Positions 14,214 to 59,568 are shown, counted from the stretch's first letter. The stretch: 64,000 bases of DNA from an uncultured Gammaproteobacteria bacterium (GCA_963976865.1 CAXBLY010000001.1:671224-735223), one strand, 5' to 3'. The notes: generated from the sequence alone by a model not told the origin. A program made the numbers and translations.

Positions 14214-14215
14214 AT

Positions 14216-18224: not shown

Positions 18225-18264
18225 GAAGAATCAGTATTACGCCTTTTTGTTTAGTAGCAGCGAT

Positions 18265-42154: not shown

Positions 42155-44602
42155 GTGCAACCAGGGAGCAGGCGTCGTTTGGACACTAGTCTAAAAATTA
42201 GATCAGAGATGGAATCAAGTGTGTCTAGAGCTTTTAGACAATGGATCACTCTGGGCGCCCTGTTTTTTATGTCTTTAAACAGTCAGGCCGAAGTGGCGGC
42301 TCAGCTTGACTGGGATACATTGACCTGGCCGGCAGGATCAACAAGCCAGACATACACAATTGGATCAGGTGATGTATCGATTACATTCAACGGTACGAGT
42401 GATACCCCACCTGGAGATACCGGAGCATTAAGCACTAATGACAATGGTATAGATTCACCTTCAATCGATAACACTAAAACCGGTGGACTGTCACCCGTTG
42501 AAGATTCACTTGATATCTATGTGAATTACTCAACAACTCCTTCAGGGTTACAGGAAATTCCCATATTGATTGACTTTTCACATCCGGGAGGTGTGAGCAA
42601 TGTCAGTTTTAGTATTTTTGATGTAGATCGAGACCTTAGTGCAAACGGGTTTGTCGACTATGTTGAGGTAACCGCAACTACTGATGGTATTAATTATTTT
42701 AATCCAACAAGCATAACAGATAGTTCAGCAAACAGTTCTGATGGCACGAAAACAGTTACTGGAACGAATGCATCTAATGATAGTGCAAATGGAACAGCAA
42801 CTTTTGCATTTAGTCACAGTGGTATCACGCAGATAAAAGTCGTTTACGGCAATATCACAACAGCCTATCAGGCTGCTTCTATTCACGATATAAATTTCAG
42901 TTATCTGGCGCCGGATTTAGCAATAACAAAAACACATTCGGGAGTGTTCAATCAGGACGATATTGAATCATATGTAATCAGCGTCAGTAATAGTGCAACG
43001 GCGATTGATGAACCCGGTGCAATTACTGTGACAGATACTTTGCCTGCAGGATTGAGCTATGACTTGGCATCCGGTGCAGGCTGGTCATGCGGCGCGTCGG
43101 GACAAAATGTGACATGCACGCATGCCGGCCCATTGGCTGCAGGTGATTCTTTACCGGATATTACACTTGATGTTTTGGTATCCGCTGCTGCCGTGCCATC
43201 AGTAATTAATACGGCCAGTGTGGCGGGTACATTGCCGGATGCAAATGAGTCAGATAATTCAGACACCGACACTGCAACGGTAACAGGTACATCAGGAATA
43301 ATAGCTGGTAATAAGCCTTTGTATCTATATTCAGATCCAGGTCTGGATTTGTCGAGAACACCACCGTCTACGTCACAGTCAAGCGTAAGAATCAGGAAAA
43401 ATGTAGAAGTCTCAAGGTCATGGGTAATCACTCCTCAAACACAGGCGCCATTAGTGATAGACGGGGATGTAGCAGAGATACCTGTTGAATTAATACTGGA
43501 AAGATGTAACGGCACATGTTCCAGCAGGACGCGCAGTGTTGAAGTGACTTTATCAACATCACTAGGCGTTATCGGAACAGTCACGCGAAACTTAAGCTTA
43601 AACGGTAACCCAACAGCTTATACATTTTTGGTGCCGATAAGTGCAGATATAGCCTTGCCAGCATCATCGACAATAACGCTGACGGTAAGCAATGTAAGTT
43701 CTGGTGGAGGAGGCAGACAGATATTTGTGTTGCCTGAGAATGGCGGAGACAACTCGCGTGTCGAACTAACATCTGAAACAGTCATAAATATAGAATCCGT
43801 AAAGTTTTATGATGCGGCATACCCTGCGGGAAATGAAGTTACGTCATACATGCCTGGTGATACGGCATATATACGAGCAGAAGTGAGTGATCCGTTTGGC
43901 AGCTTTGATATTAGCAGTGCATTAATAAGCATTATTGATGCGCAAGGTAATAATGTCGTTACTAATGATGGTATGACAGAAATACCTGGGGCTAGCGGTG
44001 CATTAAAGTCATTTGAATATTCTTATTTAATTCCAGCTGCATCTTCAGGAGTCTGGGACGCAGTCATTATTGCAAATGAAGGCAGCGAAGGAATAGTTAG
44101 CGATAGTGAAATTGCATCGATCAACGTGGGTGGAACACCCGATTTAGTTTTCCTGAAAACGTCACAAGTGATAAGTGACGGTACAGGTGCGACAGCACCA
44201 ATAGCCAAAGCGATTCCAGGCGCTACAGTATTATACAGGCTGTCAATTACAAATCAGGGCGATGGTGCAACAGATGCGGGTCTGATGTTGGTCGACCCTA
44301 TTCCTGCAAGTACTAGCTTGTGTGTTTCAGATCCCTGTGCGCAGGGAGCAGACCCGATTCAATTTATTGATGCACCAGCAGGGACCAGTACAAGTGGATT
44401 GGTATTTGATTATGCAAGTGATGTTGAATTCTCTAAAAGCAGTGGGCCTGCATATATTTATGGAGCAACGTTAACACCAGATGCAGATGGTTACGATCAG
44501 GGTGTAACTAGTATCAGGGTAAGCCCAGACGGACAATTCAATCCTGCAAGTGGATCGACGCCGGCAGGGTTTGAAATCTTATTCAGAGTGCAGGTGAAAT
44601 GA
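42155..44602 (+). CDS. Secreted DUF11-domain protein (putative filament tip/adhesin)
   Basis: Signal peptide (start probably 42209 or later); one complete internal DUF11 and a truncated C-terminal DUF11. Confidence 0.82.
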   Translation: MQPGSRRRLDTSLKIRSEMESSVSRAFRQWITLGALFFMSLNSQAEVAAQLDWDTLTWPAGSTSQTYTIGSGDVSITFNGTSDTPPGDTGALSTNDNGIDSPSIDNTKTGGLSPVEDSLDIYVNYSTTPSGLQEIPILIDFSHPGGVSNVSFSIFDVDRDLSANGFVDYVEVTATTDGINYFNPTSITDSSANSSDGTKTVTGTNASNDSANGTATFAFSHSGITQIKVVYGNITTAYQAASIHDINFSYLAPDLAITKTHSGVFNQDDIESYVISVSNSATAIDEPGAITVTDTLPAGLSYDLASGAGWSCGASGQNVTCTHAGPLAAGDSLPDITLDVLVSAAAVPSVINTASVAGTLPDANESDNSDTDTATVTGTSGIIAGNKPLYLYSDPGLDLSRTPPSTSQSSVRIRKNVEVSRSWVITPQTQAPLVIDGDVAEIPVELILERCNGTCSSRTRSVEVTLSTSLGVIGTVTRNLSLNGNPTAYTFLVPISADIALPASSTITLTVSNVSSGGGGRQIFVLPENGGDNSRVELTSETVINIESVKFYDAAYPAGNEVTSYMPGDTAYIRAEVSDPFGSFDISSALISIIDAQGNNVVTNDGMTEIPGASGALKSFEYSYLIPAASSGVWDAVIIANEGSEGIVSDSEIASINVGGTPDLVFLKTSQVISDGTGATAPIAKAIPGATVLYRLSITNQGDGATDAGLMLVDPIPASTSLCVSDPCAQGADPIQFIDAPAGTSTSGLVFDYASDVEFSKSSGPAYIYGATLTPDADGYDQGVTSIRVSPDGQFNPASGSTPAGFEILFRVQVK

Positions 44603-45612
44603 TGAAGCTGAGTGCTAGCATTATTTCACTGTTAATAACGTTGATCTTTTCGGCGACAGCCAATGCTGTAGGTGTTGCAGCAGGCACATCTATAGCAAAT
44701 ACCGCCACAGTTGATTTCACAATAGGTGGCACGGCGGGAGTAGCGACAGACACTGATATTTTTCAGGTACAGGAAATTATAAACGTAGATGTCGCATGGC
44801 AAGATGCTGCAAATGTAATGGTATCGCCGGGTGCTTCGCAACAGGTTTTAACATTTATTGTCACCAATACGGGAAATGGTGTTGAAGCATTTTCGCTACA
44901 GATAGATAACACCGTCATAGTGACAGATGATTTTGATCCTGTTAACGGGCTTATCTATTTGGATGGGAATGGTAACGGTGTGTTTGATGGAGCGCCAATA
45001 GATCCCGTATACACGGCGGGTTCAAATGACCCTGTGCTTAATGCCAATGGTATAGACACACAAATAATATTTCTGGTTAGTGATATCCCTGCTGGTGGAA
45101 CAGCAGGTCAGACAGGTGAAAGCGAGTTAACCGTGGATGCGCTAACACCAGGGGCATCGGGTGCCGCAGCAGGTACAAATCTTGATGGTGCCGGTGATGG
45201 TGGTATCGATGCAGTTGTAGGTGTCAGTCAGGCAAATGATAGAACGACCGGCATATACGAAATAGATGTATCTCCAGTTGATGTTGGTATCGTCAAATCA
45301 TCCCAGGTAATCAGCAATGGTAATGGCTGTTCAGCTGCACCGTGCTCACCAGTGCCAGGTGCCACGATACGTTATTCGCTGCAAGTAAACATTTCAGGTG
45401 TAGGCACAGTAAACAGTCTCGTCATCACCGACCCGATTCCAAACAACACGACTTATCTTACAGAGAGTATCAGTCTGAATAATGCTTCTCTGACGGATAG
45501 TAGTGCTGATGCGGATGCAGGAAACTTTTCTGCAAATACGGTAACTGTCGACTTGGGAGATATCTCGAGTGCAGCTACTCATCTTATAACTTTCGATGTA
45601 ACCATAAACTAA
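44599..45612 (+). CDS. Secreted DUF11-type subunit
   Basis: Signal peptide; N-terminal GTSIANTATV; C-terminal VK...PGATIRY...ITDPIP...ITFDVTIN. Confidence 0.82.
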   Translation: MMKLSASIISLLITLIFSATANAVGVAAGTSIANTATVDFTIGGTAGVATDTDIFQVQEIINVDVAWQDAANVMVSPGASQQVLTFIVTNTGNGVEAFSLQIDNTVIVTDDFDPVNGLIYLDGNGNGVFDGAPIDPVYTAGSNDPVLNANGIDTQIIFLVSDIPAGGTAGQTGESELTVDALTPGASGAAAGTNLDGAGDGGIDAVVGVSQANDRTTGIYEIDVSPVDVGIVKSSQVISNGNGCSAAPCSPVPGATIRYSLQVNISGVGTVNSLVITDPIPNNTTYLTESISLNNASLTDSSADADAGNFSANTVTVDLGDISSAATHLITFDVTIN

Positions 45613-45625
45613 AAAGGAGAACAAA

Positions 45626-46129
45626 GTGAATAAATACTTCCTGACATTCACAAAAACACTCTGTGTGTTCTTAATGGCATCAGTCTATTCAATGGTCAAT
45701 GCCAATTCCTCCGACGCAATTGAAGTAAGTTCTATCGTTGAGCTGGAGATTGTTTCACTGGATAAGCAAGGTAATGAAATTATCAAGCGTATTCCTGCTG
45801 AAAAAGTAACTCCTGGTAGCGAAGTAATTTATACAACGCGTTTCAAACATAACGGTACTGAGCCAGCAGCGGATATTGTCATTTCGAATCCAATTCCTGA
45901 GCACACTACATATAAAGTAGGTAGTGCAAAAGGTGATGATGCAGAAATGTTTTATTCCATAGATGGCGGTAAATCGTTTCATCAGCCAGATCAACTTGTT
46001 GTAGTGGGTAAAGACGGTAGTACGCGTGTAGCCGAAGCAAAGGATTACACGGATATCCGCTGGATTTACAAAAGAGAGTTGCAACAAGGTGACGTGGGGA
46101 CGGTCGAGTTTCGAGTTGTTCTTAAATAA
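45626..46129 (+). CDS. Secreted single truncated DUF11-like protein
   Basis: Signal peptide; PGSEVIY, ISNPIP, YSIDGG, IRW, VEFRV. Confidence 0.82.
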   Translation: MNKYFLTFTKTLCVFLMASVYSMVNANSSDAIEVSSIVELEIVSLDKQGNEIIKRIPAEKVTPGSEVIYTTRFKHNGTEPAADIVISNPIPEHTTYKVGSAKGDDAEMFYSIDGGKSFHQPDQLVVVGKDGSTRVAEAKDYTDIRWIYKRELQQGDVGTVEFRVVLK

Positions 46130-46164
46130 TCGTATCCAAGAGTAAAGTACAAGGAGTACATAGT

Positions 46165-47274
46165 ATGGATAATATAAGCAATAGATATTTTGCAAGAATT
46201 GTGATGAGTTTAATGCTCATTGCAGGTTTTGTTTCACAGGTGCATGCAGTTGGTACACCAGCTGGAACACAAGTGGATAACCAGGCGACCCTGAATTACT
46301 CGGTTGGTGGAACAGCGCAAATCCCGGTGACTTCGGATGACCCAAATCAGGGTGGAGCAAATGATGCTACAAGTTTCATCGTCGATACCAAGGTTGATGT
46401 GACAGTGACCTGGCAGGACGGTGCAAACGTACAGGTAGCACCTGGACAGGATGGAGCAACTCCATTGCCAAATCCACCATCAGTGCTGGAATTTCTGGTA
46501 ACTAATGAAGGTAATGCTGATTTCCAGGATTTCGCATTAAGTTCTGCAAATGTTGGTGGAGATGATTTTGACCCAAGTGCAGTGCAGATTTATGTTGATG
46601 ATGGTGACGGTGTTTATAACTCAGCGCTAGATACAGCAACATTTATTGATGAATTGAGTTCTGATTCAACGGGTGGTGCGAATGAAATAACAGTATTTGT
46701 TGTTGGTTCAATTCCATCATCACAGACAAATGGTCAGACATCAAATATCGCGTTAATTGCGACTGCGCATGAAGCCTCGGGTTCAACAGGTTCACTGGGT
46801 GCGTTAACAGTAGCGGATACACTCGATAATGATATTGCATTTGGTGCAGGTGCAAATCAAATAGTGTTTGCAGACGCAGCAGGTACGGCAGCGACAGATC
46901 TGGTCACTGACGGTGAGCACTCTGCAACGGGTACTTATGTCATTGCGGCAACATCAGTGGCTGTACGCAAGTCATCTACTGTGACGGATGATGGTCTTGG
47001 CAATACTTCTGCAACTGCAAAAGCAATCCCGGGTGCAACTGTCACTTACTCAATTGAGATTGAGAATTCGGGTGCAACTGGTGCAACTGCGATAACGTTA
47101 ACTGATCCAATCGATGTGAGTAATTTGTCATACAACAACCCTAGCGTGTCATTTGATGCGGGTTGTGGTGGTGCGACCAGTGAAAGTTTTAGTAGTCCAA
47201 ATCTTACGGTCAATGTGGGATCGATAGCAGCTGGTACTACATGCACGGTTACGTTTGACGTGACTATTCTTTAG
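46165..47274 (+). CDS. Secreted DUF11-type subunit (putative major subunit)
   Basis: Signal peptide; GTPAGTQVDNQATL; C-terminal RK...AIPGATVTY...LTDPI...VTFDVTIL; paralog of 44599. Confidence 0.82.
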   Translation: MDNISNRYFARIVMSLMLIAGFVSQVHAVGTPAGTQVDNQATLNYSVGGTAQIPVTSDDPNQGGANDATSFIVDTKVDVTVTWQDGANVQVAPGQDGATPLPNPPSVLEFLVTNEGNADFQDFALSSANVGGDDFDPSAVQIYVDDGDGVYNSALDTATFIDELSSDSTGGANEITVFVVGSIPSSQTNGQTSNIALIATAHEASGSTGSLGALTVADTLDNDIAFGAGANQIVFADAAGTAATDLVTDGEHSATGTYVIAATSVAVRKSSTVTDDGLGNTSATAKAIPGATVTYSIEIENSGATGATAITLTDPIDVSNLSYNNPSVSFDAGCGGATSESFSSPNLTVNVGSIAAGTTCTVTFDVTIL

Positions 47275-47300
47275 TTACTCAATGTAATTTGTCAGGAAGC

Positions 47301-47327
47301 GCACGCGAACAGATAATGTTCGCGTGC
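47301..47327 (+). other. Intergenic 11-bp stem-loop inside the DUF11 operon
   Basis: GCACGCGAACA-GATAA-TGTTCGCGTGC; no U tract. Confidence 0.6.
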
Positions 47328-47334
47328 AATACTG

Positions 47335-50300
47335 ATGCGAAGGATTGCAAATACAAGTATGGCTTGCATACATAACGAGTGTATGCAGATAGATCAGGCG
47401 CCAAAGTCTGATGATCGTCTGTGGATGCAGCTTGTCCTTGTATTGAATTTACTGATACTAATTATACTAAATACAGTGTTTTCAGTGGCGTATGCGGTAC
47501 CACCAGGGACTGTCATTACTAATACGGCTGTTGCCAATTTCGAAATAGCATCAGTGCCACAATCACGCTTTTCTAATTCTGTTGATGTCACGACAACTGT
47601 CAATCTCAGTCCTGCAACAATCTCTTTTTTACAGTATTCACCAACAGGAGCAGGATCAACGCCTACCAACTCATCTCCAACGGGATGCAGCAGCAGTGGC
47701 GAAAGTGGGCCTTTTGTACCTTTAGCTAACCCAACTTTCCCGGGTACGGGCGTGTTGAATGTTGCTAGTCCTGTTGATCTGGCCCCTGCGAATAGTTATC
47801 ACCAGGGAGAACCTGTTTTCATTAGAGTCAATGATGCGAATAGAAATTTAAACAGTGCCATCCGGGACACGCTGGTAGTCACAATCAGATCGACGAATAT
47901 CGGGGATCTTGAAGTTTTGGAATTATATGAAACTGATGTTAATACGGGCGAGTTTGTAGGCTTTATACAAACAGTAACAACACCAGTAACCCCTAATGAC
48001 TGTGTGCTGGCAGTTGTTACGAATGGGTTGATCGAGGTCAGTTATACAGATATTTATGACAATACCGACACAGTGAGTACAAATGTCTTGGTTGATCCGT
48101 TTGGTATCGTATTTAATAGTTCAACAGGTGCTCCTGTGAATGGAATATCTGTGACACTGATCAACACAGTTACAAATTTACCTGCCGCGGTGTTTGGAGA
48201 CGACCTGGTAAGTGCCTATCCGTCTACTGTAATAACGGGATCTAGCGTGACGGATGCCGGGGGTACTGTATATAACTTTGGGTCTGGCGAGTATCGCTTT
48301 CCATCTGTTGCACCCGGTACTTATCGCCTGCAAATTGATAATGATACATTTGTTGCTCCATCAACAATATCGATAGCGCAGTTACAGGCATTACCAAATG
48401 CACCATTTGCGCTGGACGCAAATGCCTCATATGGACAGAATTTTACATTGGTAGTGGGTCCGCCACTGAATGTGGATATACCTGTTGATCCTGTTGAAGA
48501 CGTGTTGTTTGTTACTAAAAATGCTTCTAAAGATGAAGTTGCGATCGGTGATTTCATGCAATATGAAATTATTGTCGCGAATAATCGACTATCGAATGTT
48601 GCTGCAAATGCAGTATTGACTGACACATTGCCGACTGGGTTTCGATTTCAGCAAGACTCGTTACAGATAGGGGGAAGCTACGTTGCTGACCCTGTCATAT
48701 CTTCAGATGGTCGCACGATGTCAGTTTCGCTAGGTGATATTGCTGCATCAAACACGGTGACGGCAAGGTATGTCGTTGAAATTACTTCAGGCGCAGCATT
48801 TGGCACTGCGATAAACTCGGCACAGGTTAGTGATGCAGCAAACGTCTCATCAAATGTTGCGCAAGCGGCTGTACAGGTGATTGATGATTTACTAGGCACA
48901 CGAAGTTTCCTGATAGGAACAGTTGCACAGAATGCATGTCAGGAACCTGGAAAGAATTATAGTGAAATAAATTACACTCTGAAGAGCAAGTATCAGGGCA
49001 ATGAATTCATACATACTCTCGAAATCAGTCCGTCAGGTGATTTTAATGAAATGCTGGACGTTGAAGTGCAGCTTCCCAGACTGCTGACCTACAAACCTTC
49101 ATCGAGCAGGCTGAATGGAAATATTTATAATGATCCATTATCGCAAGCAGAAACATTATTGTTTACAGTCAAGCCTGGTCGCGCTAAACAGGTGCTGAGT
49201 TTCAGTACAATTGGTGATGCTGAATATACAGGCAGGTTTGAAATAAAGGCAAGGCTGCTGTCAGATAAAAAGCGCAGAGCAAATGCCAGCAGCGGATGGG
49301 CTTTGAATATCTATAAGGCCGATGGCGATATATCCATATTAGAACCTGTAAGTAGCGAAACAACATTGAAGTTATCACCGTCCAGTGTTGCAAAAGGTGT
49401 TTCAAATATTCGTTTGTTCCTCGAAGATGGGAGATATGTGCTCACAGATGATCGAGGCATGTATCACTTTGAAGCGATAGAGCCTGGTACCCACGTAGTT
49501 CAGTTAGATCCTGAAAGTATTCCCGAGCATCTGGAAATACACGAATGTATTGGCAATACCAGAATTGCAGAAGCTAAATATTCACAGTTCGTTGATATAC
49601 AGCCGGGTCTGCTATGGCGTGCAAATTTTTATTTGCGTGAAAAGCAGCCTGAAACGAAAACGATTCACATGCGGTTAACGAGTGATATGAGTGGTGATGA
49701 TATCGCATATAAATTAGCGCTAGAAGGCAAGTTTGATGGTTTGAATAATGTACGCGCTACAATTGTATTGCCAGACGGAATTGAATATATACCGGGAAGT
49801 TCATCATTAAACGGAGTGGCGGGAACTGAGCCAGGAAATACGTTTGGTTCGCTAACATATCGACTGGCTGAGCTGCTTTCAAAAGATAACAATAACGTCA
49901 TTCGTTTCAAAGCGGCTGGAACACCTCTTGCACAAGGTGAAATAAGTGCTCAGGCATTGATTACATACGATGTTGGCGAACTGAAAAATCAGCGACTAAA
50001 CGCAGTGACTAATACACTGTTACATCAAAAGGAGCGTTCCAGGCAGAATAAGTATGTGTTGAGGTCAAATTTTAACTCGCTCTCTGCGCAGTTGAATATG
50101 AAAGGGCTCAATGATCTTGAAGAGCTGATATCAAACGTGAGCAAACATAAGGTAAATAAAATACAGATAACAGGACATACAGATAATCAGCCTATCCGGA
50201 CTGGATATCAAAATGTGTACTCAGATAATCAGGCTTTATCAGAATCAAGAGCGTCGGCAGTCGCTGATTATTTGCGAAGCGCGCTGAAATTAACAGATGA

Positions 50301-53300
50301 ACAGGTTCATGTAAGAGGTGTGGGTGATTCAATTCCGATTGCGGATAACTCAAGCAGTAATGGCCGAGCAATGAATCGTCGCGTGGAAGTAACAATTAAC
50401 AGTCTGGAAGTGACGAGAGAAAAGCAATTTGAAGTATTAGGCAAGAAGAGTGGAGAAAGCTCAACGGTTGTCACTACTGTGCCCACGCCAGTGTCAGATT
50501 TGGAAAACAAATTGCCTGAAATTAATATTAATAGAGCGCCTGATTACAATAAAGCCTGGCTGGACAGGGCTGACAATACACTGGAGTGGTTATTACCGTT
50601 GGAAAACGCCAATCCTGAAATACCTTCTGTTGATATAGCAGTAAAGCATGCGAGAGGACATAAGATTGTATTGAAATTAAATGGAGAAAAAGTCAGTGCT
50701 CTGAATATAGATAGTAAATTATTTAGCACAGATAATCAGCGCGTGATTTCAAGCTGGCGGGGTGTTGATATTATAGAAGGTGATAACATGCTTGAAGCCA
50801 TCACTTACGACACTAATGATATCGAGCAGGATAGAATTCAAAGAAACCTGCATTTATCAGGGCAACCTGTGAGAGCTGAACTGCTGCCAGAATATTCCCG
50901 ACTACAGGCTAATGGTCGTAGCCCAATTATAATAGCGATTAAATTTTATGATCGTTGGGATTATCCAGCGCGACCAGGTATTGTAGGTTCATATCAGCTT
51001 TCACCAGAATATACTGATGCAGCTCTAAAAGAACAGCTCGACAAGCAACCATTAAATAGTCTTCTCCAAGGGCGCACCAGATATAAAATCGCCGCGGGTG
51101 GAATAGCATATATTGAGCTGGAGCCGAGTTCGCGCAGCGGTAAAGCGGTATTGGATTTTGAGTTTATAGATAACCGCAAACAGACAATCTCCGCATGGTT
51201 AACTGCATCGCAGAGAGAATGGATACTGGTCGGTTTAGCGGAAGGTACAGCTGGTTATAATAAGGTCTCCGGAAATGCGCAGGCGCTTGATGATCATCAA
51301 CACGAAGATGATTTATATGAAGATGGCAGACTGGCTTTTTATGGAAAAGGTAAAGTTAAAGGTGAATGGTTGTTAACACTTGCTTATGACTCGGAACGCA
51401 AAGAAAGAAATTCATCTGAGCGACTGTTCCAGACTATTGATCCAGATGAATACTATAGTTTATACGGTGATGCGACGGAGCAGCAATTTGACGCAGCAAG
51501 TTCACGTAAACTGTATTTGAAGATAGAGAAACAACAGTTTTATGCATTGTTTGGCGATTTCAACACTGATTTAACCGTGACTGAATTAGCTCGTTACAGT
51601 CGTAGTATGACGGGTGTTAAGAGTGAGTTTGAAGGTGAACATTACGGCTATAACGCATTTGCAGCTGATACTGATCAGGTATTTGCGCGAGATGAAATTC
51701 AGGGTAATGGCACATCAGGGCTGTACCGTTTATCGAACACGGGAATTATTGTTAATAGTGAAAAGGTGCGACTGGAAACACGTGATAGATTTCAGCCTCA
51801 GAGAGTAATATCGGAACAGGGACTGAGCCAGTTCCTGGATTATAGTATTGATACTGTTAACGGGACACTATTCTTTAAGCAACCTGTTCAAAGCAGAGAT
51901 GATGACTTTAACCCTGTTTATATTGTTGTCGAATATGAAGTGTCTGGCGCTAACGATCGTCAGGTTACCGCAGGTGGACGTGCCAACATTTTCAGCAAAG
52001 ACAAGAGGATGGAATTAGGACTAAGCGGTGTGAAGCAGGGCGATACGAATACGGAAGGGAATCTGATTGGTGTGGATGCTAGATACCAAATCTCCAGCCA
52101 CACCGAGTTTCAAGTGGAAGCTGCTGTGAGCAAAACAACTGTAGATAATAATACACGTAATGGAACCGCATACCTTGCAGAGTTACAACATGCATCGGAA
52201 CGTGCAGATGCGAACGTCTATTTTCGACGCCAGGCGACCTCGTTTGGACTGGAACAGCAGAGTGCGAACAATGATGGTAGCAAACGATATGGGGTAGATG
52301 CTCGCTATAAAGTGAATGATAGTGTGAACATCAATAGTGAAATTTACCGTGATGAAGTGCTTGCCAATGATAATAAACGCACAGTCGCTGCATTAGAGCT
52401 TGAGAAATCACTAAAGCAATATGAAGTGGCAGCGGGTGTTGCATATGCGAATGACAAAATTGAGGACCAGGATAATAATGATTCAGTACTGGCAACAGGG
52501 CGTGCAGCCAGATATCTGATAGAAAATAAATTAAAAGTGCGTGCAGATGCGGAAATAGAGGTTACCAATGATAATTCTGTCGATCACCCAAGTAGATTAA
52601 TTGGTGGGGCTGATTACCGCCTGAATCAGGCAACTGAATTGTTTGCAGAGCATGAATATACACAGGGAGAAGATCAGGATACAAATACCACCAGAGTGGG
52701 CACGCGTGTAACGCCATGGAATCAAGCCACCATTAACTCTTCAGTAGAACAGCAGTTTAATGAAGATGGCGAGCGTCTCTTTGGCAATCTGGGTCTTGTT
52801 CAGGGCTGGCAATATAATGATAATTTCCAGCTGGACTTTAGTATTGACCGGTCTCATACATTTCGAGATCCGGGTGGGCAAGCATTTAACAGTAATGCTG
52901 CACTCTCTTCCGGAACAGTGACTGATGATTTTACGGCAGCATCGGTGGGTGCAAACTACGTAGAAGATACATGGTCATCATCTTCGCGTGCAGAATATCG
53001 TACGAGTGATGCTGATATTCAGCGCAGTCTGTTTATTGGATATTTTAGAGAGCAGAACACAGGATTTGGTATGTCTCTGGATATGCAGGTATTTGATACT
53101 GATCGACGCAGCGGTTCAGATGAAACCCTGGCCGAGATTAACTATTCAGTTGCATACAGGCCAGATAGCAGTGCATGGACGATATTGAATCGATTTGATC
53201 TTGAATACGATAGTGCGAATAGCGATGATTCCAGTATTCGTACCAGAAAAGCGGTTAATAATCTTAATTTAAACTACACAGTTGATGGTAAACACCAGTT

Positions 53301-53649
53301 TGGTGCTCACTGGGGAATTAAATATACGCTGGATAATATCGATAACGAAGAATACGATGGTGTCACACAATTGCTGGGATTCCAGTACCTGTATGATTTG
53401 CATAAGCGAGTAGACTTGTCGTTACATGGGGATGTGCTGTATTCAAGTAATACCGATAATTATAGATACTCGCTCGGTCCTGCTATCGGTCTCAATGTCT
53501 TTAAGAATATGTGGCTAAGCGTAGGCTATAATATAGATGGATTTGAAGATGAAGACTTTTCTGCTGCTGAGTACACAGCGAATGGTCCTTATGTGAAAAT
53601 GCGTTTCAAGTTTGATAAAAGTACAGTTAAGGGTCTGTTAAACAGGTAA
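47335..53649 (+). CDS. Very large DUF11/OmpA-C domain protein with a predicted C-terminal outer-membrane beta-barrel
   Basis: Complete DUF11; GHTD...NQALSE.RA..V...NRRVEV OmpA motif (~50065-50400); long amphipathic beta-strand C-terminal half; start uncertain. Confidence 0.82.
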   Translation: MRRIANTSMACIHNECMQIDQAPKSDDRLWMQLVLVLNLLILIILNTVFSVAYAVPPGTVITNTAVANFEIASVPQSRFSNSVDVTTTVNLSPATISFLQYSPTGAGSTPTNSSPTGCSSSGESGPFVPLANPTFPGTGVLNVASPVDLAPANSYHQGEPVFIRVNDANRNLNSAIRDTLVVTIRSTNIGDLEVLELYETDVNTGEFVGFIQTVTTPVTPNDCVLAVVTNGLIEVSYTDIYDNTDTVSTNVLVDPFGIVFNSSTGAPVNGISVTLINTVTNLPAAVFGDDLVSAYPSTVITGSSVTDAGGTVYNFGSGEYRFPSVAPGTYRLQIDNDTFVAPSTISIAQLQALPNAPFALDANASYGQNFTLVVGPPLNVDIPVDPVEDVLFVTKNASKDEVAIGDFMQYEIIVANNRLSNVAANAVLTDTLPTGFRFQQDSLQIGGSYVADPVISSDGRTMSVSLGDIAASNTVTARYVVEITSGAAFGTAINSAQVSDAANVSSNVAQAAVQVIDDLLGTRSFLIGTVAQNACQEPGKNYSEINYTLKSKYQGNEFIHTLEISPSGDFNEMLDVEVQLPRLLTYKPSSSRLNGNIYNDPLSQAETLLFTVKPGRAKQVLSFSTIGDAEYTGRFEIKARLLSDKKRRANASSGWALNIYKADGDISILEPVSSETTLKLSPSSVAKGVSNIRLFLEDGRYVLTDDRGMYHFEAIEPGTHVVQLDPESIPEHLEIHECIGNTRIAEAKYSQFVDIQPGLLWRANFYLREKQPETKTIHMRLTSDMSGDDIAYKLALEGKFDGLNNVRATIVLPDGIEYIPGSSSLNGVAGTEPGNTFGSLTYRLAELLSKDNNNVIRFKAAGTPLAQGEISAQALITYDVGELKNQRLNAVTNTLLHQKERSRQNKYVLRSNFNSLSAQLNMKGLNDLEELISNVSKHKVNKIQITGHTDNQPIRTGYQNVYSDNQALSESRASAVADYLRSALKLTDEQVHVRGVGDSIPIADNSSSNGRAMNRRVEVTINSLEVTREKQFEVLGKKSGESSTVVTTVPTPVSDLENKLPEININRAPDYNKAWLDRADNTLEWLLPLENANPEIPSVDIAVKHARGHKIVLKLNGEKVSALNIDSKLFSTDNQRVISSWRGVDIIEGDNMLEAITYDTNDIEQDRIQRNLHLSGQPVRAELLPEYSRLQANGRSPIIIAIKFYDRWDYPARPGIVGSYQLSPEYTDAALKEQLDKQPLNSLLQGRTRYKIAAGGIAYIELEPSSRSGKAVLDFEFIDNRKQTISAWLTASQREWILVGLAEGTAGYNKVSGNAQALDDHQHEDDLYEDGRLAFYGKGKVKGEWLLTLAYDSERKERNSSERLFQTIDPDEYYSLYGDATEQQFDAASSRKLYLKIEKQQFYALFGDFNTDLTVTELARYSRSMTGVKSEFEGEHYGYNAFAADTDQVFARDEIQGNGTSGLYRLSNTGIIVNSEKVRLETRDRFQPQRVISEQGLSQFLDYSIDTVNGTLFFKQPVQSRDDDFNPVYIVVEYEVSGANDRQVTAGGRANIFSKDKRMELGLSGVKQGDTNTEGNLIGVDARYQISSHTEFQVEAAVSKTTVDNNTRNGTAYLAELQHASERADANVYFRRQATSFGLEQQSANNDGSKRYGVDARYKVNDSVNINSEIYRDEVLANDNKRTVAALELEKSLKQYEVAAGVAYANDKIEDQDNNDSVLATGRAARYLIENKLKVRADAEIEVTNDNSVDHPSRLIGGADYRLNQATELFAEHEYTQGEDQDTNTTRVGTRVTPWNQATINSSVEQQFNEDGERLFGNLGLVQGWQYNDNFQLDFSIDRSHTFRDPGGQAFNSNAALSSGTVTDDFTAASVGANYVEDTWSSSSRAEYRTSDADIQRSLFIGYFREQNTGFGMSLDMQVFDTDRRSGSDETLAEINYSVAYRPDSSAWTILNRFDLEYDSANSDDSSIRTRKAVNNLNLNYTVDGKHQFGAHWGIKYTLDNIDNEEYDGVTQLLGFQYLYDLHKRVDLSLHGDVLYSSNTDNYRYSLGPAIGLNVFKNMWLSVGYNIDGFEDEDFSAAEYTANGPYVKMRFKFDKSTVKGLLNR

Positions 53650-55577: not shown

Positions 55578-56141
55578 GTGAGTACTCGAGACAAAATAGT
55601 TAAATCAGCGGTGACATTGTTTATACAACAGGGCGTGGCAAAAACAACGACCAAACAAATTGCACACTCAGCATCAGTGGCCGAGGGATCGATATATCGC
55701 TATTTCCCAAGTAAAGAAGAACTCGCGTGGCAGGTCTTTAAAAATTACCATCAATATCTGGCAATCCAGTTACAGGATGCAGCATCACAGGCACTGGATA
55801 TTGAAGGAAAAATAAACTCTCTGGTGAACTGTTTTTTAAAACTGGCAGATGATGACTGGCTAATGTTTAGATACTACCTGACGTCACAACACACTCATAT
55901 GGAAAAAGTCACTGAAGATATGCTAACGCCGTATCAGGTGCTGAGTGATGTAATAAAACAAAGTGCAGAGACAGGGGAGATAAAAAAGGACGATATCAAT
56001 CTGCTAACAGCAATGATGATGGGTGCCGTGCATCAGATTGCAATCAATAAGATTTATTCAAGAATTAATGGCGAGTTGTATGTGCATCGCAAATTTGTGT
56101 CAAACACACTGGTAACCATGCTTAAAGACAAGAGAATATAA
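55578..56141 (+). CDS. TetR/AcrR family regulator
   Basis: TT.QIA..ASVAEGSIYRYFPSKEEL. Confidence 0.92.
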   Translation: MSTRDKIVKSAVTLFIQQGVAKTTTKQIAHSASVAEGSIYRYFPSKEELAWQVFKNYHQYLAIQLQDAASQALDIEGKINSLVNCFLKLADDDWLMFRYYLTSQHTHMEKVTEDMLTPYQVLSDVIKQSAETGEIKKDDINLLTAMMMGAVHQIAINKIYSRINGELYVHRKFVSNTLVTMLKDKRI

Positions 56142-56142: not shown

Positions 56143-59100
56143 ATGAGACAGCTGTTTCAATTGTTTGCCAGTCAGCGTTTTTCACCGTTATTTATAGTGC
56201 AGTTTCTGGGGGCGTTTAGCGACAATATATTTAAATCTGCATTGTTAATATTAATTACATATAAATTTGCAGACAATGTAGGTGTAGAAGCCTCTATTCT
56301 CAATATGCTTGCTGCAGGTTTATTTATACTTCCTTTCTTTTTGTTTTCGGCATTTGGTGGCTTATTAGCTGACAAATTCAGTAAGCACATATTAATACGT
56401 TATATAAAAGCATTTGAACTGACGATTTTGATGATCGCATCCTTTGCCTTGATTTATGAACAGGTGTGGATGCTGTTTATATGTCTGTGCATGACAGGGC
56501 TGCAGTCAGCATTATTTGGGCCAGCTAAATATGGAATATTGCCGGAGCTTCTGAAAGATCGAGAATTGTTATCAGGTAATGCGCTGGTTGAAGCAGGTAC
56601 TTTCTTGTCTATATTGTTAGGCACAATTGTCGGCGGGCTCCTTATACTCGGGGATCATGGTGCGCTATCTATATCAATAGTTTTATTGATGTGTTCTTTA
56701 ACGGGCTGGATAGCGAGTTTTGTCATACCAAGTATTCCCAGTGCAAATCCAGCGTTAAAATTAACTGCAAATATTTTCAAACAGACTTATGATGTTTACA
56801 CGCTGGGAATTAAGCACTGGGAAATAAGACGAGTAATATTTGCAATATCCTGGTTCTGGTTTCTGGGCTATGTCATTCAATCACAGCTCAATCCCTTAAC
56901 GGCAACAGTTCTGTTTGCAGATGAGCAGGTTGCAGTATTGATGCTGGTGATGTTTACCATAGGGATTGGTGTGGGATCTCTCCTCTGCAGCATTATAATG
57001 GCAGGAGAGATAAGCGCCAGGATAGTTCCATTTGCAGGGATTGCAATGTCGCTATTCAGCTTCGATTTGTATCTGTCTCTGGATAAAGTAGTGCAACAGG
57101 CAATGTCATCCGGGCTGAATACAGTTTCTGAATTTCTGGCGAATAAGCAGCATTGGCGTATTCTGCTGGATATGCTGTTGTTATCTGTCGCAGCAGGTTT
57201 TTATATAGTGCCGTTATATACCTTGCTGCAAAAGCGGGTTGAAGATAAATTGCGTGCACGCACTATTGCAGCAAACAATATATCAAATGCCATGTTCATG
57301 GTGCTGGCATCTGTGCTGGTTATAGCAGTGTTAAGTACTGGATTTGAAATAGCTGATTTATTCTGGATGTTAGCCGTTATTAATTTATTTGTGTCGATAT
57401 ATATCATGAAAATAATACCAAAACAGACATTGAAAACACTGGGAAGAATTATATTTAAACTGCTGTACAGAGTTGAAGTTAAGGGACTTGAAAATTTCCC
57501 AACTGACGATTCAGCTTATGTGATTGTAGCAAACCACACATCATTTCTTGATGGGCCATTATTAATGAGTTATATGCCAGAGCTGCCAGTCTTTGCAATT
57601 AATACTGATGTAAATAAAAAATGGTGGGCAAAAATTTTCACGCAGTTTTTTGAGATGTATCCCCTGGATGCTACCCAGCCAATGGCAGTCAAAGGTCTGG
57701 TTAAAATGCTCAAAAATGGTAGAAAAGTAGTGATATTCCCCGAAGGGAGGATTACAAATAATGGTAGCCTGATGAAAGTGTATGAGGGTCCTGGGAAAAT
57801 TGCCGAACTCGGTGGAGCACAGCTGATACCTGTTCGTATAGATGGGGCGCAATATACACGGTTTGGTCGTTTGAAAGGGCTGGTCAAATTAAAACTGTTC
57901 CCGAAGATTACTATCTCAATATGTCCGCCAGTGGAGACAGGTATTCCTAAAGAAGTGCGTGGTAGTGCTCGCAAGTCAGCATTGAGAAGAAAAGTTTACG
58001 ATGTCATGACTGACATGATGTATAAGACGACGAATACGAATGAAACGTTATATCACGCATTAGCCGCATCAATTGACAAGTACGGTAAGTCTCATGAAGT
58101 ATTAGAGGATATTGAACGCAAGCCTATAACACTGGGCAAGGTATTGTTGGGCAGTATTGTTCTTGGGCGTGTGCTGTCAAGACATGTGAAAAAAGGCGAA
58201 CATGTAGGAATGCTGTTGCCGAATGCAATCCCTACAGGTGTGACATTTTACGCATTACAGGCGATAGGCGCGATACCTGCCATGCTGAATTTCACAGTAG
58301 GGAAGACCAGCATTACATCGGCACTAGATACTGCAAAAGTAAAAACAGTCATAACATCACGCAGATTTATTGAACTGGGACAACTGGAAGAGCTGGAGAA
58401 TGTAATTCAGCAGAATGCTGAGATTATTTATCTGGAGGATGTGAAACAGAGTATACGTCTGTTAGATAAAGTAGCGGGAATATTAGTAGCAAAAACAGGA
58501 ATAGGTCTATATAAACACCAGGCTGATCCAGACGAACCTGCTGTAATACTGTTTACTTCAGGTTCAGAGGGGTCGCCCAAAGGTGTGGTGTTGAGTCATA
58601 AAAACCTGTTGTCAAATCAGGCTCAGGTAAAAGCGTGCCTGGATTTCTCGTCGAAAGACCAGTTTTTTAATGCACTTCCCGTATTCCATTCGTTTGGCCT
58701 GGGTGTGGGTCTGGTATTGCCAGTATCAAGTGGAATAAAGACTTTTCTTTATCCTTCACCATTGCATTACAAGATTGTTCCGGAGCTGGTTTACGACACT
58801 AAATCCACCGTGGTATTTGGGACAGATACATTCTTAAGTGGTTATGCCACGCACGGTGACCCGGAAGACTTTCAATTCACGCGATATGTGATTGCAGGTG
58901 CGGAGAAACTTAAAGCGTCAACAAGAGAAAACTGGTTCAAAAAGTTTGGTGTTAGAATTTTTGAGGGATATGGAGTGACGGAAACATCACCTGCCTTAAG
59001 TATTAATAATTACAGTTTTTGCAAATTTGGAACCGTGGGCAGAATGTTCCCTGGAATACAGACAAAGCTGGAATCTGTTCCTGGAGTCAAGCAGGGTGGA

Positions 59101-59568
59101 CGGCTGTGGGTGAAAGGCAACAATATTATGCTGGGATATTTGCGCGCCGACAATCCTGGTGTGCTGGAGCCGGTGACGGACGGATGGTACGACACTGGTG
59201 ATATCGTTGATATTGATGACGAAGGTTACGTGAGCATATTGGGGCGCGCAAAACGATTTGCTAAAATTGGTGGTGAAATGGTATCTCTGACACAGGTTGA
59301 AGAATGGGTGACAGCGTTGTGGCCAGATCAGGATCACTGTGTATGCGCTATTTCTGATGATCGTAAAGGCGAAAAATTAGTATTGGTCACAACGCGTGAT
59401 GATGCAGACAGAAAGACTGTCCAGAAGCATATTACTTCGAATGGGGGTGCTGAAATCATGGTGCCTAAAGAAATATTACTGGTAAAACAAATACCGGTCT
59501 TGGGTACGGGTAAATTAGATTATCCAGCAATACAGGAGTTAGCAAATGATTATGAGAAACACCAATAA
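56143..59568 (+). CDS. aas: MFS (LplT-like)-acyltransferase-acyl-ACP synthetase fusion (Aas-like)
   Basis: N-terminal MFS; NHTSFLD and FPEG (acyltransferase); FTSGSEG.PKG, YGVTE, YDTGD (AMP-binding). Confidence 0.88.
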   Translation: MRQLFQLFASQRFSPLFIVQFLGAFSDNIFKSALLILITYKFADNVGVEASILNMLAAGLFILPFFLFSAFGGLLADKFSKHILIRYIKAFELTILMIASFALIYEQVWMLFICLCMTGLQSALFGPAKYGILPELLKDRELLSGNALVEAGTFLSILLGTIVGGLLILGDHGALSISIVLLMCSLTGWIASFVIPSIPSANPALKLTANIFKQTYDVYTLGIKHWEIRRVIFAISWFWFLGYVIQSQLNPLTATVLFADEQVAVLMLVMFTIGIGVGSLLCSIIMAGEISARIVPFAGIAMSLFSFDLYLSLDKVVQQAMSSGLNTVSEFLANKQHWRILLDMLLLSVAAGFYIVPLYTLLQKRVEDKLRARTIAANNISNAMFMVLASVLVIAVLSTGFEIADLFWMLAVINLFVSIYIMKIIPKQTLKTLGRIIFKLLYRVEVKGLENFPTDDSAYVIVANHTSFLDGPLLMSYMPELPVFAINTDVNKKWWAKIFTQFFEMYPLDATQPMAVKGLVKMLKNGRKVVIFPEGRITNNGSLMKVYEGPGKIAELGGAQLIPVRIDGAQYTRFGRLKGLVKLKLFPKITISICPPVETGIPKEVRGSARKSALRRKVYDVMTDMMYKTTNTNETLYHALAASIDKYGKSHEVLEDIERKPITLGKVLLGSIVLGRVLSRHVKKGEHVGMLLPNAIPTGVTFYALQAIGAIPAMLNFTVGKTSITSALDTAKVKTVITSRRFIELGQLEELENVIQQNAEIIYLEDVKQSIRLLDKVAGILVAKTGIGLYKHQADPDEPAVILFTSGSEGSPKGVVLSHKNLLSNQAQVKACLDFSSKDQFFNALPVFHSFGLGVGLVLPVSSGIKTFLYPSPLHYKIVPELVYDTKSTVVFGTDTFLSGYATHGDPEDFQFTRYVIAGAEKLKASTRENWFKKFGVRIFEGYGVTETSPALSINNYSFCKFGTVGRMFPGIQTKLESVPGVKQGGRLWVKGNNIMLGYLRADNPGVLEPVTDGWYDTGDIVDIDDEGYVSILGRAKRFAKIGGEMVSLTQVEEWVTALWPDQDHCVCAISDDRKGEKLVLVTTRDDADRKTVQKHITSNGGAEIMVPKEILLVKQIPVLGTGKLDYPAIQELANDYEKHQ

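What the first reader, a model, noticed from the sequence alone, without database searches (positions are those of the whole stretch)
42155..53649. Five-gene DUF11 operon with split Ig domains: candidate donor-strand-complemented pilus
Seen: complete DUF11 domains here run from a K-bearing first strand through TD.LP to a final INTA/INSA...V hairpin (internal domains of 42155 and 47335). The C-terminal DUF11 domains of 42155, 44599 and 46165 stop just before that hairpin (FRVQVK*, FDVTIN*, FDVTIL*). The missing piece appears at the mature N-termini of 44599 (GTSIANTATV...ATDTDIFQV), 46165 (GTQVDNQATL) and 47335 (GTVITNTAVA...SNSVDVTTTV). So 42155 is acceptor-only, 44599 and 46165 are donor plus acceptor, and 47335 is donor-only. 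Inference: a head-to-tail polymer of tip, shaft and outer-membrane base, distinct from chaperone-usher, type IV, type V and curli systems.
Basis: partly seen in the sequence, partly recalled or inferred. Interest (0 to 1): 0.88.

Follow-up and report, generated by a model that had tools for sequence, protein, structure and literature searches.

The report
Split, self-ligating surface adhesin fibre operon
Five neighbouring genes appear to encode pieces of a long cell-surface adhesin that click together end to end by sharing halves of one protein domain, probably locking with a chemical bond, a way of building surface fibres not yet described for bacteria with an outer membrane.

Summary
Five co-directional genes (42155-53649) carry DUF11/"CLIPPER" (CnaA-like isopeptide) domains. 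The C-terminal domains of genes 1, 2 and 4, and also gene 3, stop after strand 7. A conserved I-x-N-x-A hairpin sits at the mature N-termini of genes 2, 4 and 5.

New points:
- The truncated domains keep the Lys and catalytic Asp; the hairpins keep the partner Asn.
- The cassette 2-3-4-5 is conserved in order in 68 of 80 loci from many phyla.
- Gene-1-like proteins form a very large family with variable lectin-like heads. They carry the truncated domain at the extreme C-terminus (142 of 150 best representatives), lack a hairpin, and are often unlinked.
- Gene 5's body is homologous to the anchor end of unsplit giant adhesins.
- Gene 3 is an acceptor lacking Lys and Asp.

Best reading (0.65): a modular adhesin fibre, tip←2←4←5(base). 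It is joined by hairpin complementation in trans and probably sealed by Lys-Asn isopeptide bonds.

No structure or complex prediction could be run. Three things therefore stay inferred: cis versus trans closure for genes 2 and 4, polymer versus fixed chain, and the bond itself.

The parts
42155..44602 (+). Gene 1 (P0001, 815 aa): variable tip or cargo protein. It is acceptor-only and has no N-terminal hairpin.
   Evidence: The donor HMM hits 0/16 class-1 ORFs.
42914..43273 (+). Complete CLIPPER/DUF11 domain of P0001 (res 254-373) with K259, D294 and N352.
   Evidence: Pfam 1-113/114, E 4.6e-12; residues. The spacing is like K715/D748/N806 of PDB 9IFR as reported in PMC12617251.
44141..44599 (+). 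C-terminal truncated CLIPPER 'acceptor' of P0001 (about res 663-815). It has K668 and D714 and ends ...FRVQVK*.
   Evidence: TIGR01451 hit at 680-722. In A4, Lys and Asp are invariant in 19/19. Residues.
44599..45612 (+). Gene 2 (P0002, 337 aa): donor hairpin, Ig-like middle domain and truncated acceptor.
44668..44772 (+). P0002 mature N-terminal hairpin (res 24-58) with N34.
   Evidence: Asn is present in 95% of 85 sequences. DCA pairs 35-52 and 39-48 indicate an antiparallel hairpin.
45274..45609 (+). P0002 truncated acceptor domain (res 226-337) with K233 and D278.
   Evidence: K233 and D278 are invariant in 85 sequences. hhalign aligns it to positions 6-96/129 of a complete domain.
45626..46129 (+). 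Gene 3 (P0003, 167 aa): single truncated CLIPPER-like acceptor. It has no hairpin and no conserved Lys, and carries Asn (N88) in place of the catalytic Asp.
   Evidence: (n=75). Three further class-3-like proteins of variant systems have G, N and G at that place.
46165..47274 (+). Gene 4 (P0004, 369 aa): a paralog of gene 2. It has a hairpin (res 29-75, N39; nt 46249-46389) and a truncated acceptor (about res 259-369; K269, D314).
   Evidence: N/K/D are intact in 68/68. It forms a separate clade from class 2 with support 1.0.
47335..53649 (+). Gene 5 (P0005, 2104 aa; the annotated form starts at M17): donor-only base or anchor.
47497..47607 (+). P0005 mature N-terminal hairpin (about res 55-91) with N63.
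   Evidence: The class-5 alignment (n=66) shows G..I.NTA.A....SN.V. Asn is present in 63/66.
48508..48867 (+). Complete internal CLIPPER domain of P0005 (res 392-511) with K395, D430 and N494.
   Evidence: Pfam 3-112/114. The triad is intact in 62/66.
50071..50379 (+). OmpA-like peptidoglycan-binding domain (res 913-1015).
   Evidence: Pfam E 5.3e-14; many NCBIfam OmpA/MotB-type hits.
50422..53646 (+). Conserved C-terminal 1075 aa: Ig-like domains, a highly conserved module (res about 1150-1600) and a putative outer-membrane beta-barrel.
   Evidence: In alignment A3, OMP_b-brl hits 7/36 members, Porin_4 hits 2/36 and Invasin_D3 hits 5/36. There is no PDB sequence relative. The region is homologous to the C-terminal end of unsplit 3060-5018-aa adhesins.

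Best explanation
The operon encodes a fibrillar adhesin that is made in pieces and assembled outside the cytoplasm.

How the pieces join. Each junction is one CLIPPER (DUF11, CnaA-like) Ig domain split in its strand 7-8 loop. The upstream piece ends with strands 1-7, which carry the Lys and the catalytic Asp. The downstream piece begins, right after its signal peptide, with the strand 8-9 hairpin carrying the Asn. Insertion of the hairpin into the neighbour's incomplete domain (two-strand donor complementation) rebuilds the fold. It also brings Lys, Asp and Asn together, so a spontaneous Lys-Asn isopeptide bond probably seals the joint.

Order of the chain, collinear with the genes: variable tip or cargo (gene 1, acceptor only) <- gene 2 <- gene 4 <- gene 5. 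Gene 5 is donor-only. It anchors the chain through an OmpA-like peptidoglycan-binding domain and a large C-terminal outer-membrane module.

Gene 3 is an acceptor without Lys and Asp. It is inferred to bind a hairpin reversibly, as a chaperone or a cap.

Shown: the domain truncations, the conserved residues, the gene order, co-occurrence, and homology of gene 5 to unsplit adhesins. Inferred: trans rather than cis closure for genes 2 and 4, the covalent bond, surface location, the export route and the role of gene 3. Whether gene 2 repeats (a true pilus shaft) is open.
For: 1. Truncation at one point. The acceptors align to positions 6-96 of a 129-column complete domain (Prob 97.8). Pfam places them at 12-84 and 6-84 of 114. 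Class 3 aligns likewise to 7-97.

2. A triad divided between partners.
- Class 2 (n=85): K233 and D278 100%, N34 95%.
- Class 4: N/K/D in 68/68. Class 5: donor Asn in 63/66.
- Class-1 acceptors: Lys and Asp in 19/19, and 98% and 92% of 142 representatives.
- PMC12617251 (passages read) shows by crystal structure that DUF11 forms a Lys(first strand)-Asn(penultimate strand) bond catalysed by Asp.

3. Orphans that need a partner in trans. Acceptor-only proteins have no N-terminal hairpin in 0/16, 0/11 and 1/142 cases. Class 5 has a hairpin, and its other CLIPPER-like domains read as complete.

4. Conservation. The order 2-3-(2/4)n-5 is kept in 68/80 loci from Gamma-, Alpha- and Deltaproteobacteria, Nitrospirota, Spirochaetales and others.

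5. Co-occurrence in one 400-genome sample. The cargo acceptor is found in 11/17 genomes with a full class-5 match, against 2/383 others.

6. Unsplit relatives. The body of gene 5 is homologous to the C-terminal 900-1700 aa of 3060-, 3728- and 5018-aa single-chain adhesins. One of them has 24 tandem CLIPPER repeats upstream.

7. Variant systems show the same grammar with 881-1130-aa multi-domain subunits. Folding back in cis is hard to picture there.

8. Independent loss. 7 class-2 proteins lack the donor Asn but keep their own Lys and Asp. 2 lack their own Lys but keep the Asn. There is no joint loss.

9. Cargo heads are lectin-like: Lectin_L-type, Laminin_G_3 x2 and beta-helix.
Against: - No structure or complex prediction ran, so no model shows the hairpin in the groove or the triad geometry.
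- Sequence evidence that the hairpin equals strands 8-9 is weak: hhalign is not significant and HMM enrichment is modest, with class 4 barely above shuffles.
- DCA on 272 class-2/4 sequences (Meff 188) gave no hairpin-to-acceptor couplings above noise. Its best hairpin ladder (res 42-46 with 178-182, sum 3.0, against 4.0-4.7 for true strand pairs) is to the protein's own middle domain. If real, that fits cis closure or a homotypic contact.
- In 3 loci (L026, L048, L059) the class-2 donor lacks Asn although a linked class-1 acceptor keeps Lys and Asp.
- 6 of 17 genomes with class 5 showed no cargo match. They are mostly fragmented assemblies, and few candidates were scored.
- Surface exposure and the barrel rest on weak Pfam hits.
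- The tiers were set after seeing a gap in the E-values.
Confidence: 0.65

Rival explanations
1. Cis closure. Genes 2 and 4 are monomers with a circularly permuted CLIPPER domain: their own N-terminal hairpin completes their own C-terminal domain and forms an intramolecular isopeptide bond. Only the gene-5 hairpin acts in trans, taking one gene-1-type cargo (or gene 3) directly.
For: - Both termini of a two-domain protein could meet if the middle domain lies alongside; nothing in the sequence forbids it.
- The weak DCA ladder between the hairpin turn (42-46) and the protein's own middle domain (178-182) would fit.
- The donor Asn and the protein's own Lys and Asp are all highly conserved within one chain.
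Against: - It leaves genes 2 and 4 without a role, although they are conserved, position-fixed paralogs.
- 9 class-2 proteins lose the Asn or the Lys singly, never jointly.
- Variant systems have the same ends on 881-1130-aa rod-like subunits.
- Only one residue (Q58) separates invariant V57 of the hairpin from E59, which DCA places in the first strand of the middle domain (pairs 59-92/94/96). That fits a straight continuation better than a U-turn. This last point is inference.
Confidence: 0.15
2. True pilus. Gene 2 (or gene 4) homopolymerises head to tail into a long shaft. Gene 4 is an adaptor, gene 5 the terminator and anchor, and gene 1 the tip.
For: - Class-2 and class-4 hairpins are alike (GT.AGT.I.N.A..Y), and class-1 and class-2 acceptors share DPIPA.T, so a class-2 hairpin might fit a class-2 acceptor.
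- Gene 2 is first in the conserved core.
- The DCA hairpin-to-middle-domain ladder could be a homotypic contact.
Against: - This genome has 3 donors for 3 Lys/Asp acceptors, so nothing needs to repeat.
- Some loci add extra class-2/4 genes (patterns 23445 x3, 23225, 2325), as if length were set by gene number.
- 6 class-2 hairpins carry S, T or A in place of the Asn.
- There are no expression data.
Confidence: 0.2
3. No complementation. The C-terminal domains are simply short, degenerate Ig domains, and the N-terminal segments belong to the following domain. The genes encode separate surface or periplasmic proteins that do not join.
For: - Direct statistical support for hairpin homology is weak.
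- There is no structural model.
Against: - Truncation falls at exactly the same place in four classes.
- Lys and Asp are near-invariant in domains that lack any Asn partner.
- Asn is conserved in three hairpin classes.
- There is strict C-terminal placement in 142/150, and genomic co-occurrence.
Confidence: 0.05

Closest known systems
Chaperone-usher pili (type 1 / P pili)
   Same: The subunit grammar matches: a tip adhesin with a lectin head and an acceptor-only pilin domain, middle subunits with donor plus acceptor, and a terminal donor-only anchor. An incomplete Ig fold is completed by a neighbour's N-terminal segment. This comparison is from established knowledge, also summarised in PMC11821415.
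   Different: - The locus has no PapD-like chaperone or usher. The genome's only such pair is on another contig.
- The donor is a two-strand hairpin.
- The fold is CnaA-like, with an isopeptide triad.
- The base is fused to its own OmpA and outer-membrane module.
Archaeal thread filament (Saci_0406), PMC9715654
   Same: Donor-strand complementation together with a proposed spontaneous intermolecular isopeptide bond (passages read).
   Different: - In threads the bond joins the N-terminal amine of Asp24 to Asn57 of subunit n+2, in an archaeal homopolymer.
- Here a canonical Lys-Asn-Asp triad of a known isopeptide domain is divided between adjacent, different proteins of a diderm bacterium.
CLIPPER/DUF11 fibrillar adhesins with an OmpA-like anchor (Acinetobacter silvestris B9T28_05395, PDB 9IFR; PMC12617251)
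   Same: The domain family and triad are the same. The overall plan is also the same: adhesive head, CLIPPER stalk and OmpA-like anchor. Gene 5 is homologous to the anchor end of such unsplit giants.
   Different: - Those are single chains with intramolecular bonds.
- Here the chain is cut into 4-5 gene products inside CLIPPER domains.
- The paper's text has no occurrence of 'split' or 'permut'. Its supplements could not be seen.
Sortase-built Gram-positive pili, and the engineered SpyTag/SpyCatcher pair (the latter recalled, not from a call)
   Same: Subunits are covalently linked through isopeptide bonds, using CnaA/CnaB-type domains. A split isopeptide domain that religates on its own is the principle of SpyTag/SpyCatcher.
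   Different: - No sortase was found in the genome, and no LPXTG at the C-termini (read).
- The split would be natural and used for assembly.
Enterococcus Elr/WxL pilus (bioRxiv 10.64898/2026.10.17.759780; abstract and outline read)
   Same: It is a donor-strand-exchange fibre outside the chaperone-usher family. It has a conserved core, and variable tips built as an invariant attachment module plus a variable payload.
   Different: - It uses a different fold (WxL).
- It has a membrane chaperone and sortase anchoring, and is confined to the Bacillota.
- No isopeptide joint is described in what I read.

Membership tests
DUF11 / CLIPPER domain (PF01345, TIGR01451) | Profile match above the curated cut-off | tested here: met
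   Pfam: P0001 46.7 bits and P0005 40.0 bits; P0004 24.6 bits, exactly at the 24.6 cut-off; P0002 (17.0) and P0003 (21.1) fall below it. TIGR01451 is above its 24-bit cut-off for all five: 30.3, 28.2, 35.9, 28.7 and 50.4.
DUF11 / CLIPPER domain (PF01345, TIGR01451) | Lys (first strand), Asp and Asn (penultimate strand) all within one domain | tested here: met
   Met for the two complete domains (K259/D294/N352 and K395/D430/N494). Not met within the truncated domains: Lys and Asp are present, but the Asn is found only in N-terminal hairpins.
DUF11 / CLIPPER domain (PF01345, TIGR01451) | CnaA-like beta-sandwich fold with a formed isopeptide bond | not testable with these tools
   Structure prediction never accepted a job. 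There is no PDB sequence match.
Chaperone-usher pilus | PapD-like chaperone and usher encoded with the subunits | tested here: not met
   No such Pfam hits in the five proteins or in 9 neighbouring ORFs. The one usher and PapD_N pair of the genome is on contig C10.
Sortase-assembled pilus | Sortase gene and a C-terminal LPXTG-type signal | tested here: not met
   PF04203 was not found in the 97.8%-complete genome. The C-termini end FRVQVK, FDVTIN, RVVLK, FDVTIL and GLLNR.
Donor-strand-complemented fibre (general mechanism) | An incomplete Ig-like fold in one subunit and the missing strand(s) at the terminus of another | tested here: met
   Shown at sequence level (truncation; hairpins). Physical insertion was not tested.
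Donor-strand-complemented fibre (general mechanism) | Subunits form head-to-tail oligomers | not tested
   The complex-prediction job (P0002 family, residues 24-337, three copies) never ran: the queue was full or no usable answer came.
OmpA-anchored giant fibrillar adhesins | OmpA-like domain plus the conserved C-terminal module | tested here: met
   P0005 residues 913-1021 and 1263-2100 align to three unsplit proteins of 3060, 3728 and 5018 aa (E 1e-37 to 3e-63). Pfam finds OmpA in one of the two scanned.

The most novel reading that the evidence does not exclude
This would be a natural 'plug-and-display' ligation system of diderm bacteria. A C-terminal strand-7-truncated CLIPPER domain acts as a sorting and ligation tag on hundreds of different lectin-like cargo proteins (>=850 clusters at 50% identity). 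These cargoes are encoded anywhere in the genome. They become covalently coupled, without any enzyme, to a stalk (genes 2 and 4) and an anchor (gene 5) through hairpin insertion and Lys-Asn bond formation. Gene 3, an acceptor that cannot form the bond, would be a new kind of chaperone that holds donor hairpins rather than donating a strand. The large conserved C-terminal module of gene 5 would be the outer-membrane conduit.
Probability: 0.4. Interest if true: 0.92.

Novelty: new variant of a known kind. Interest (0 to 1): 0.82.

Why it matters
If true, this adds a further route by which Gram-negative bacteria build surface fibres. The route would need no enzyme and no usher, and would give covalent assembly by a naturally split isopeptide domain. 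It would be widespread:
- class-5 homologues: 2893 proteins with E <= 0.001 among 7999 scored;
- relatives in 380 of 600 matched stretches of species genomes;
- phyla from Proteobacteria to Nitrospirota.

It would explain thousands of 'OmpA family' and 'TIGR01451 repeat' annotations. It would show how one anchor can display exchangeable adhesive heads. It would also offer natural orthogonal tag/catcher pairs for protein engineering.

Every step can be tested with simple biochemistry: SDS-stable adducts, a mass loss of 17 Da, and Lys/Asp/Asn mutants.

Tried and rejected
No model was made, so no fold search was possible.
It never ran, because the queue was full or no usable answer came. There is no result of any kind.
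- PDB sequence searches found nothing useful. The complete CLIPPER of P0005 gave 0 hits. Profile A3 gave only chance-level hits. Profile A1 gave only chance-level hits, and 9IFR was not retrieved.
- hhalign of the donor alignment against a complete domain was not significant and in another register.
- DCA: hairpin-to-acceptor couplings were at noise level.
- Search for fused forms. The 'longer' search gave one protein, P0125. It is a class-2(1-217)::class-5(1594-2104) chimera in a related MAG, either a deletion or a misassembly. The best 120 class-5 relatives are 1258-2411 aa, with none fused.
- Conserved accessory genes: none beyond 2-3-4-5. Neighbour clusters are housekeeping synteny.
- The promoter and terminator scan was not above shuffles: 32 against 32.9 and 11 against 8.3.
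- No RNA holder is listed for the stretch.
- The treekit clade test did not finish in time. It was replaced by a FastTree split count.
- Giant multi-repeat DUF11 proteins among the A4 hits (P0135, P0143, P0265) are ordinary repeat proteins and do not work as Rosetta stones.
- Literature. Searches for DUF11 with donor strand, DUF11 with isopeptide, intermolecular isopeptide with pilus, CLIPPER domain, Gram-negative autocatalytic, strand complementation with outer membrane, and DUF11 with OmpA found no description of this system. Supplements of PMC12617251 could not be seen and might list such proteins.

Full report
**The locus.**
Five ORFs lie head to tail on the + strand: 42155-44602 (P0001, 815 aa), 44599-45612 (P0002, 337), 45626-46129 (P0003, 167), 46165-47274 (P0004, 369) and 47335-53649 (P0005, 2104). 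They overlap by 4 nt and are then separated by 13, 35 and 60 nt. All begin with signal-peptide-like N-termini, read by eye; no lipobox is visible. The flanking genes are unrelated: DUF454, Transgly_assoc, a hydrolase, TetR and an MFS-acyltransferase-AMP-ligase fusion. All five DUF11 matches of the 2.57-Mb, 97.8%-complete genome are in this operon.

**The observation.**
- Pfam finds complete DUF11 domains in P0001 (254-373, profile 1-113/114) and P0005 (392-511, 3-112/114).
- At the C-termini of P0002 and P0004 the match stops at profile position 84 of 114, one residue before the stop codon.
- A profile of the P0002-family C-terminal domain aligns to a 129-column profile of complete domains only over 6-96 (hhalign Prob 97.8, E 8e-13).
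- P0001's C-terminal domain ends in the same way in 19 of 19 aligned relatives.
- The N-termini of mature P0002, P0004 and P0005 read GT.I.N.A...V.

Statistical support that these segments are strands 8-9 is modest. hhalign is not significant. One of five pieces gave a weak Pfam hit, to the C-terminal part of another isopeptide-domain family. A hairpin HMM from complete domains is enriched in class-2 and class-5 N-termini (19/89 and 14/79 at >=5 bits). It scores in 0/77 class 3, 0/16 class 1 and 1-2 of the shuffles, and it barely separates class 4 (4/71). The donor HMM does find the hairpin part of a complete domain in an unrelated protein (L089 677-700, iE 1e-3). DCA supports an antiparallel hairpin (pairs 35-52 and 39-48).

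**What the domain is.**
PMC12617251 (passages read) renames DUF11 'CLIPPER'. It is a CnaA-like Ig fold. The authors' crystal structure (9IFR) has an isopeptide bond between a first-strand Lys and a penultimate-strand Asn, next to an Asp (K715, D748, N806).

The two complete domains here have K259/D294/N352 and K395/D430/N494, so the spacing is the same. In the truncated domains the Lys and Asp are kept and the Asn is missing. The hairpins carry the Asn.

Conservation of these residues:
- class 2 (n=85): K233 and D278 100%, N34 95%;
- class 4: all three in 68/68;
- class 5: donor Asn in 63/66;
- class-1 acceptors: Lys and Asp in 19/19;
- class 3 (n=75): Asn in place of the Asp in >=90%, and no conserved Lys. 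Three class-3-like proteins of variant systems have G, N and G there.

**Distribution and grammar.**
- P0002 has 457 relatives among 8000 scored candidates.
- A scan of one genome per species gave 380 relatives among 600 matched stretches; 80 loci were kept.
- In 68 of 80 loci the order is 2-3-(2/4)n-5 on one strand. Most of the rest are cut by contig ends.
- The taxa include Gamma-, Alpha-, Beta- and Deltaproteobacteria, Myxococcota, Nitrospirota, Spirochaetales and Eisenbacteria.
- The donor HMM hits the first 150 residues of 87/90 class-2 and 69/71 class-4 ORFs. It hits 0/77 class 3, 0/16 class 1 and 27/65 class 5. Class 5's own alignment shows its conserved hairpin.
- Genes before and after gene 3 form two clades (144 of 145 rows separated, support 1.0; the one exception is my mislabel). 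Classes 2 and 4 are therefore old, non-interchangeable paralogs.
- No other gene family is conserved next to the core.

**Tips are a large, often unlinked family.**
- Only 21 of 80 loci have a further ORF with a C-terminal acceptor, 319-2146 aa long. It lies upstream, downstream or on the other strand.
- In five genomes whose locus lacked one, each had 2-3 full-length matches elsewhere.
- I fetched 11 of them. All 11 have a signal-like N-terminus, a variable body and the acceptor ending at the stop. None has an N-terminal hairpin.
- Against 1.84 billion representatives, the acceptor profile finds 5999, 2684 and 850 proteins at E <= 1e-3, 1e-10 and 1e-30.
- Of the best 150, 142 carry the domain at the very C-terminus, in proteins of 182-3372 aa. 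Lys is kept in 98% and Asp in 92%. A donor-like N-terminus occurs in 1 of 142. The other 8 are ordinary multi-repeat DUF11 giants.
- Ten representatives scanned with Pfam show legume-lectin, Laminin_G_3 (two), P-domain and beta-helix heads, and complete DUF11 stalks.

Domains that keep the bond-forming Lys and Asp but have no Asn strand anywhere in the chain argue strongly that the strand comes from another protein.

**Co-occurrence.**
This test used one evenly drawn sample of the class: 401 genomes, with the same handles in three searches. The conserved module of gene 5 (residues 1150-1600) gives near-full-length matches at E <= 1e-98 in 17 genomes including this one. It gives weaker partial matches in 31 more, one of which is the unpublished G324. 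I set this split after seeing a gap between 1e-98 and 3e-55.

- The cargo acceptor (E <= 1e-15) is in 13 of 400 scored genomes: 11 of the 17, and 2 of the other 383.
- Class 2 is in 16 of 400. These are 11 of the 17, four genomes with variant systems, and G324.
- Kin are not independent, and several of the negative genomes are fragmented.

**Unsplit and variant relatives.**
Three of the weaker matches were fetched. They are single ORFs of 5018, 3060 and 3728 aa whose C-terminal 900-1700 residues align with P0005 from about residue 250-390 to its end, including the OmpA-like domain. Upstream they carry the stalk in cis. One has 24 tandem 129-aa CLIPPER repeats. The others have Calx-beta, Big_1, SdrD_B and DUF11 domains. 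Gene 5 is therefore the anchor end of a known kind of giant adhesin, with the stalk replaced by a free hairpin.

Two variant split systems repeat the grammar with bigger parts:
- class-3-like small acceptors;
- a 2065- or 2363-aa class-5-like base with an N-terminal hairpin;
- subunits of 881-1130 aa with a hairpin at the mature N-terminus, internal complete domains and a truncated acceptor at the stop.

**Reading.**
The simplest account is a fibrillar adhesin cut inside CLIPPER domains, in the strand 7-8 loop, into separately exported pieces. The pieces rejoin by hairpin insertion. The gene order 1-2-(3)-4-5 is collinear with head, stalk and anchor. Three points favour trans over cis closure:
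- the orphan acceptors and the orphan donor;
- the long variant subunits;
- the independent loss of Asn or Lys in nine class-2 proteins.

The bond itself is inferred from the conserved triad and from the published chemistry of the domain.

Three matters stay open. First, whether gene 2 repeats: this genome has exactly three hairpins and three Lys/Asp acceptors. Second, how the pieces cross the outer membrane; the C-terminal module has only weak barrel-type hits and no solved relative. Third, what gene 3 does. My inference for gene 3 is a reversible hairpin-binding chaperone or cap, because it alone lacks the bond-forming residues.

**Against.**
- No structural model could be made, so the central geometry is untested.
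- DCA gave no hairpin-to-acceptor signal. It gave one weak ladder from the hairpin turn to the protein's own middle domain, which would suit cis closure or a homotypic contact.
- Three loci have a class-2 hairpin without Asn beside a class-1 acceptor that keeps Lys and Asp.

**Comparison and novelty.**
- The grammar is that of chaperone-usher pili, but neither a chaperone nor an usher is in the locus. No sortase is in the genome.
- Archaeal threads combine strand complementation with a proposed intermolecular isopeptide bond of another chemistry.
- The enterococcal WxL pilus shows a similar 'invariant attachment module, variable payload' logic in another fold.
- Seven full-text searches found no description of a split CLIPPER system.

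I rate it a new variant of a known kind (donor-strand-complemented fibres), with high interest.

Noticed in passing
window 12065-20031: A tRNA-Phe gene (12065-12140) is followed by a low-GC stretch (0.35-0.39 over 12-18 kb, against about 0.42 elsewhere). The stretch holds a 2OG-Fe(II) oxygenase gene (12441-13115, -) and two ORFs without Pfam hits. At its end lies a 588-aa homologue of animal haem peroxidases (18265-20031, -; Pfam E 2e-160). This may be an island inserted at the tRNA.
   Followed up: partly
P0125 / locus L005 (related genome G013): A 713-aa protein joins the first 217 residues of the gene-2 homologue to the last 511 residues of the gene-5 homologue (70% and 85% identity). It is either a large in-frame deletion of the operon or a MAG misassembly.
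   Followed up: partly
L100 (G021:C1:56-15112): A genome of the same family, which lacks the split system, has a 5018-aa ORF at a contig start. It holds 24 tandem CLIPPER-like repeats of exactly 129 aa, followed by a gene-5-like anchor. An 873-aa CLIPPER protein lies just downstream.
   Followed up: partly
G000 contig C10:65388-68127: The genome's only classical usher (E 1e-36) and PapD-like chaperone (E 3e-24) lie together on another contig. They form a separate chaperone-usher pilus locus.
   Followed up: no
window 56143-59568: A 1141-aa fusion of an MFS transporter, an acyltransferase and an AMP-binding enzyme lies next to a TetR regulator (55578-56141). The architecture resembles lysophospholipid transporter/acyl-ACP synthetase fusions (this comparison is recalled, not from a call).
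   Followed up: no
P0002 res 233-278, P0004 269-314, P0001 668-714: In all truncated acceptors the Lys-to-Asp spacing is 45-46 residues, against 33-35 in complete CLIPPER domains. The difference comes from a conserved inserted loop (D-P-x-N-G...P-K-A-I-P-G-A). This loop marks the split-domain subfamily and might contact the incoming hairpin.
   Followed up: no
loci L103 (G130) and L104 (G325): Divergent variant systems have 881-1130-aa donor+acceptor subunits placed on both sides of the base gene. In L104 there are two class-3-like genes and a separate 253-aa OmpA-like ORF.
   Followed up: partly
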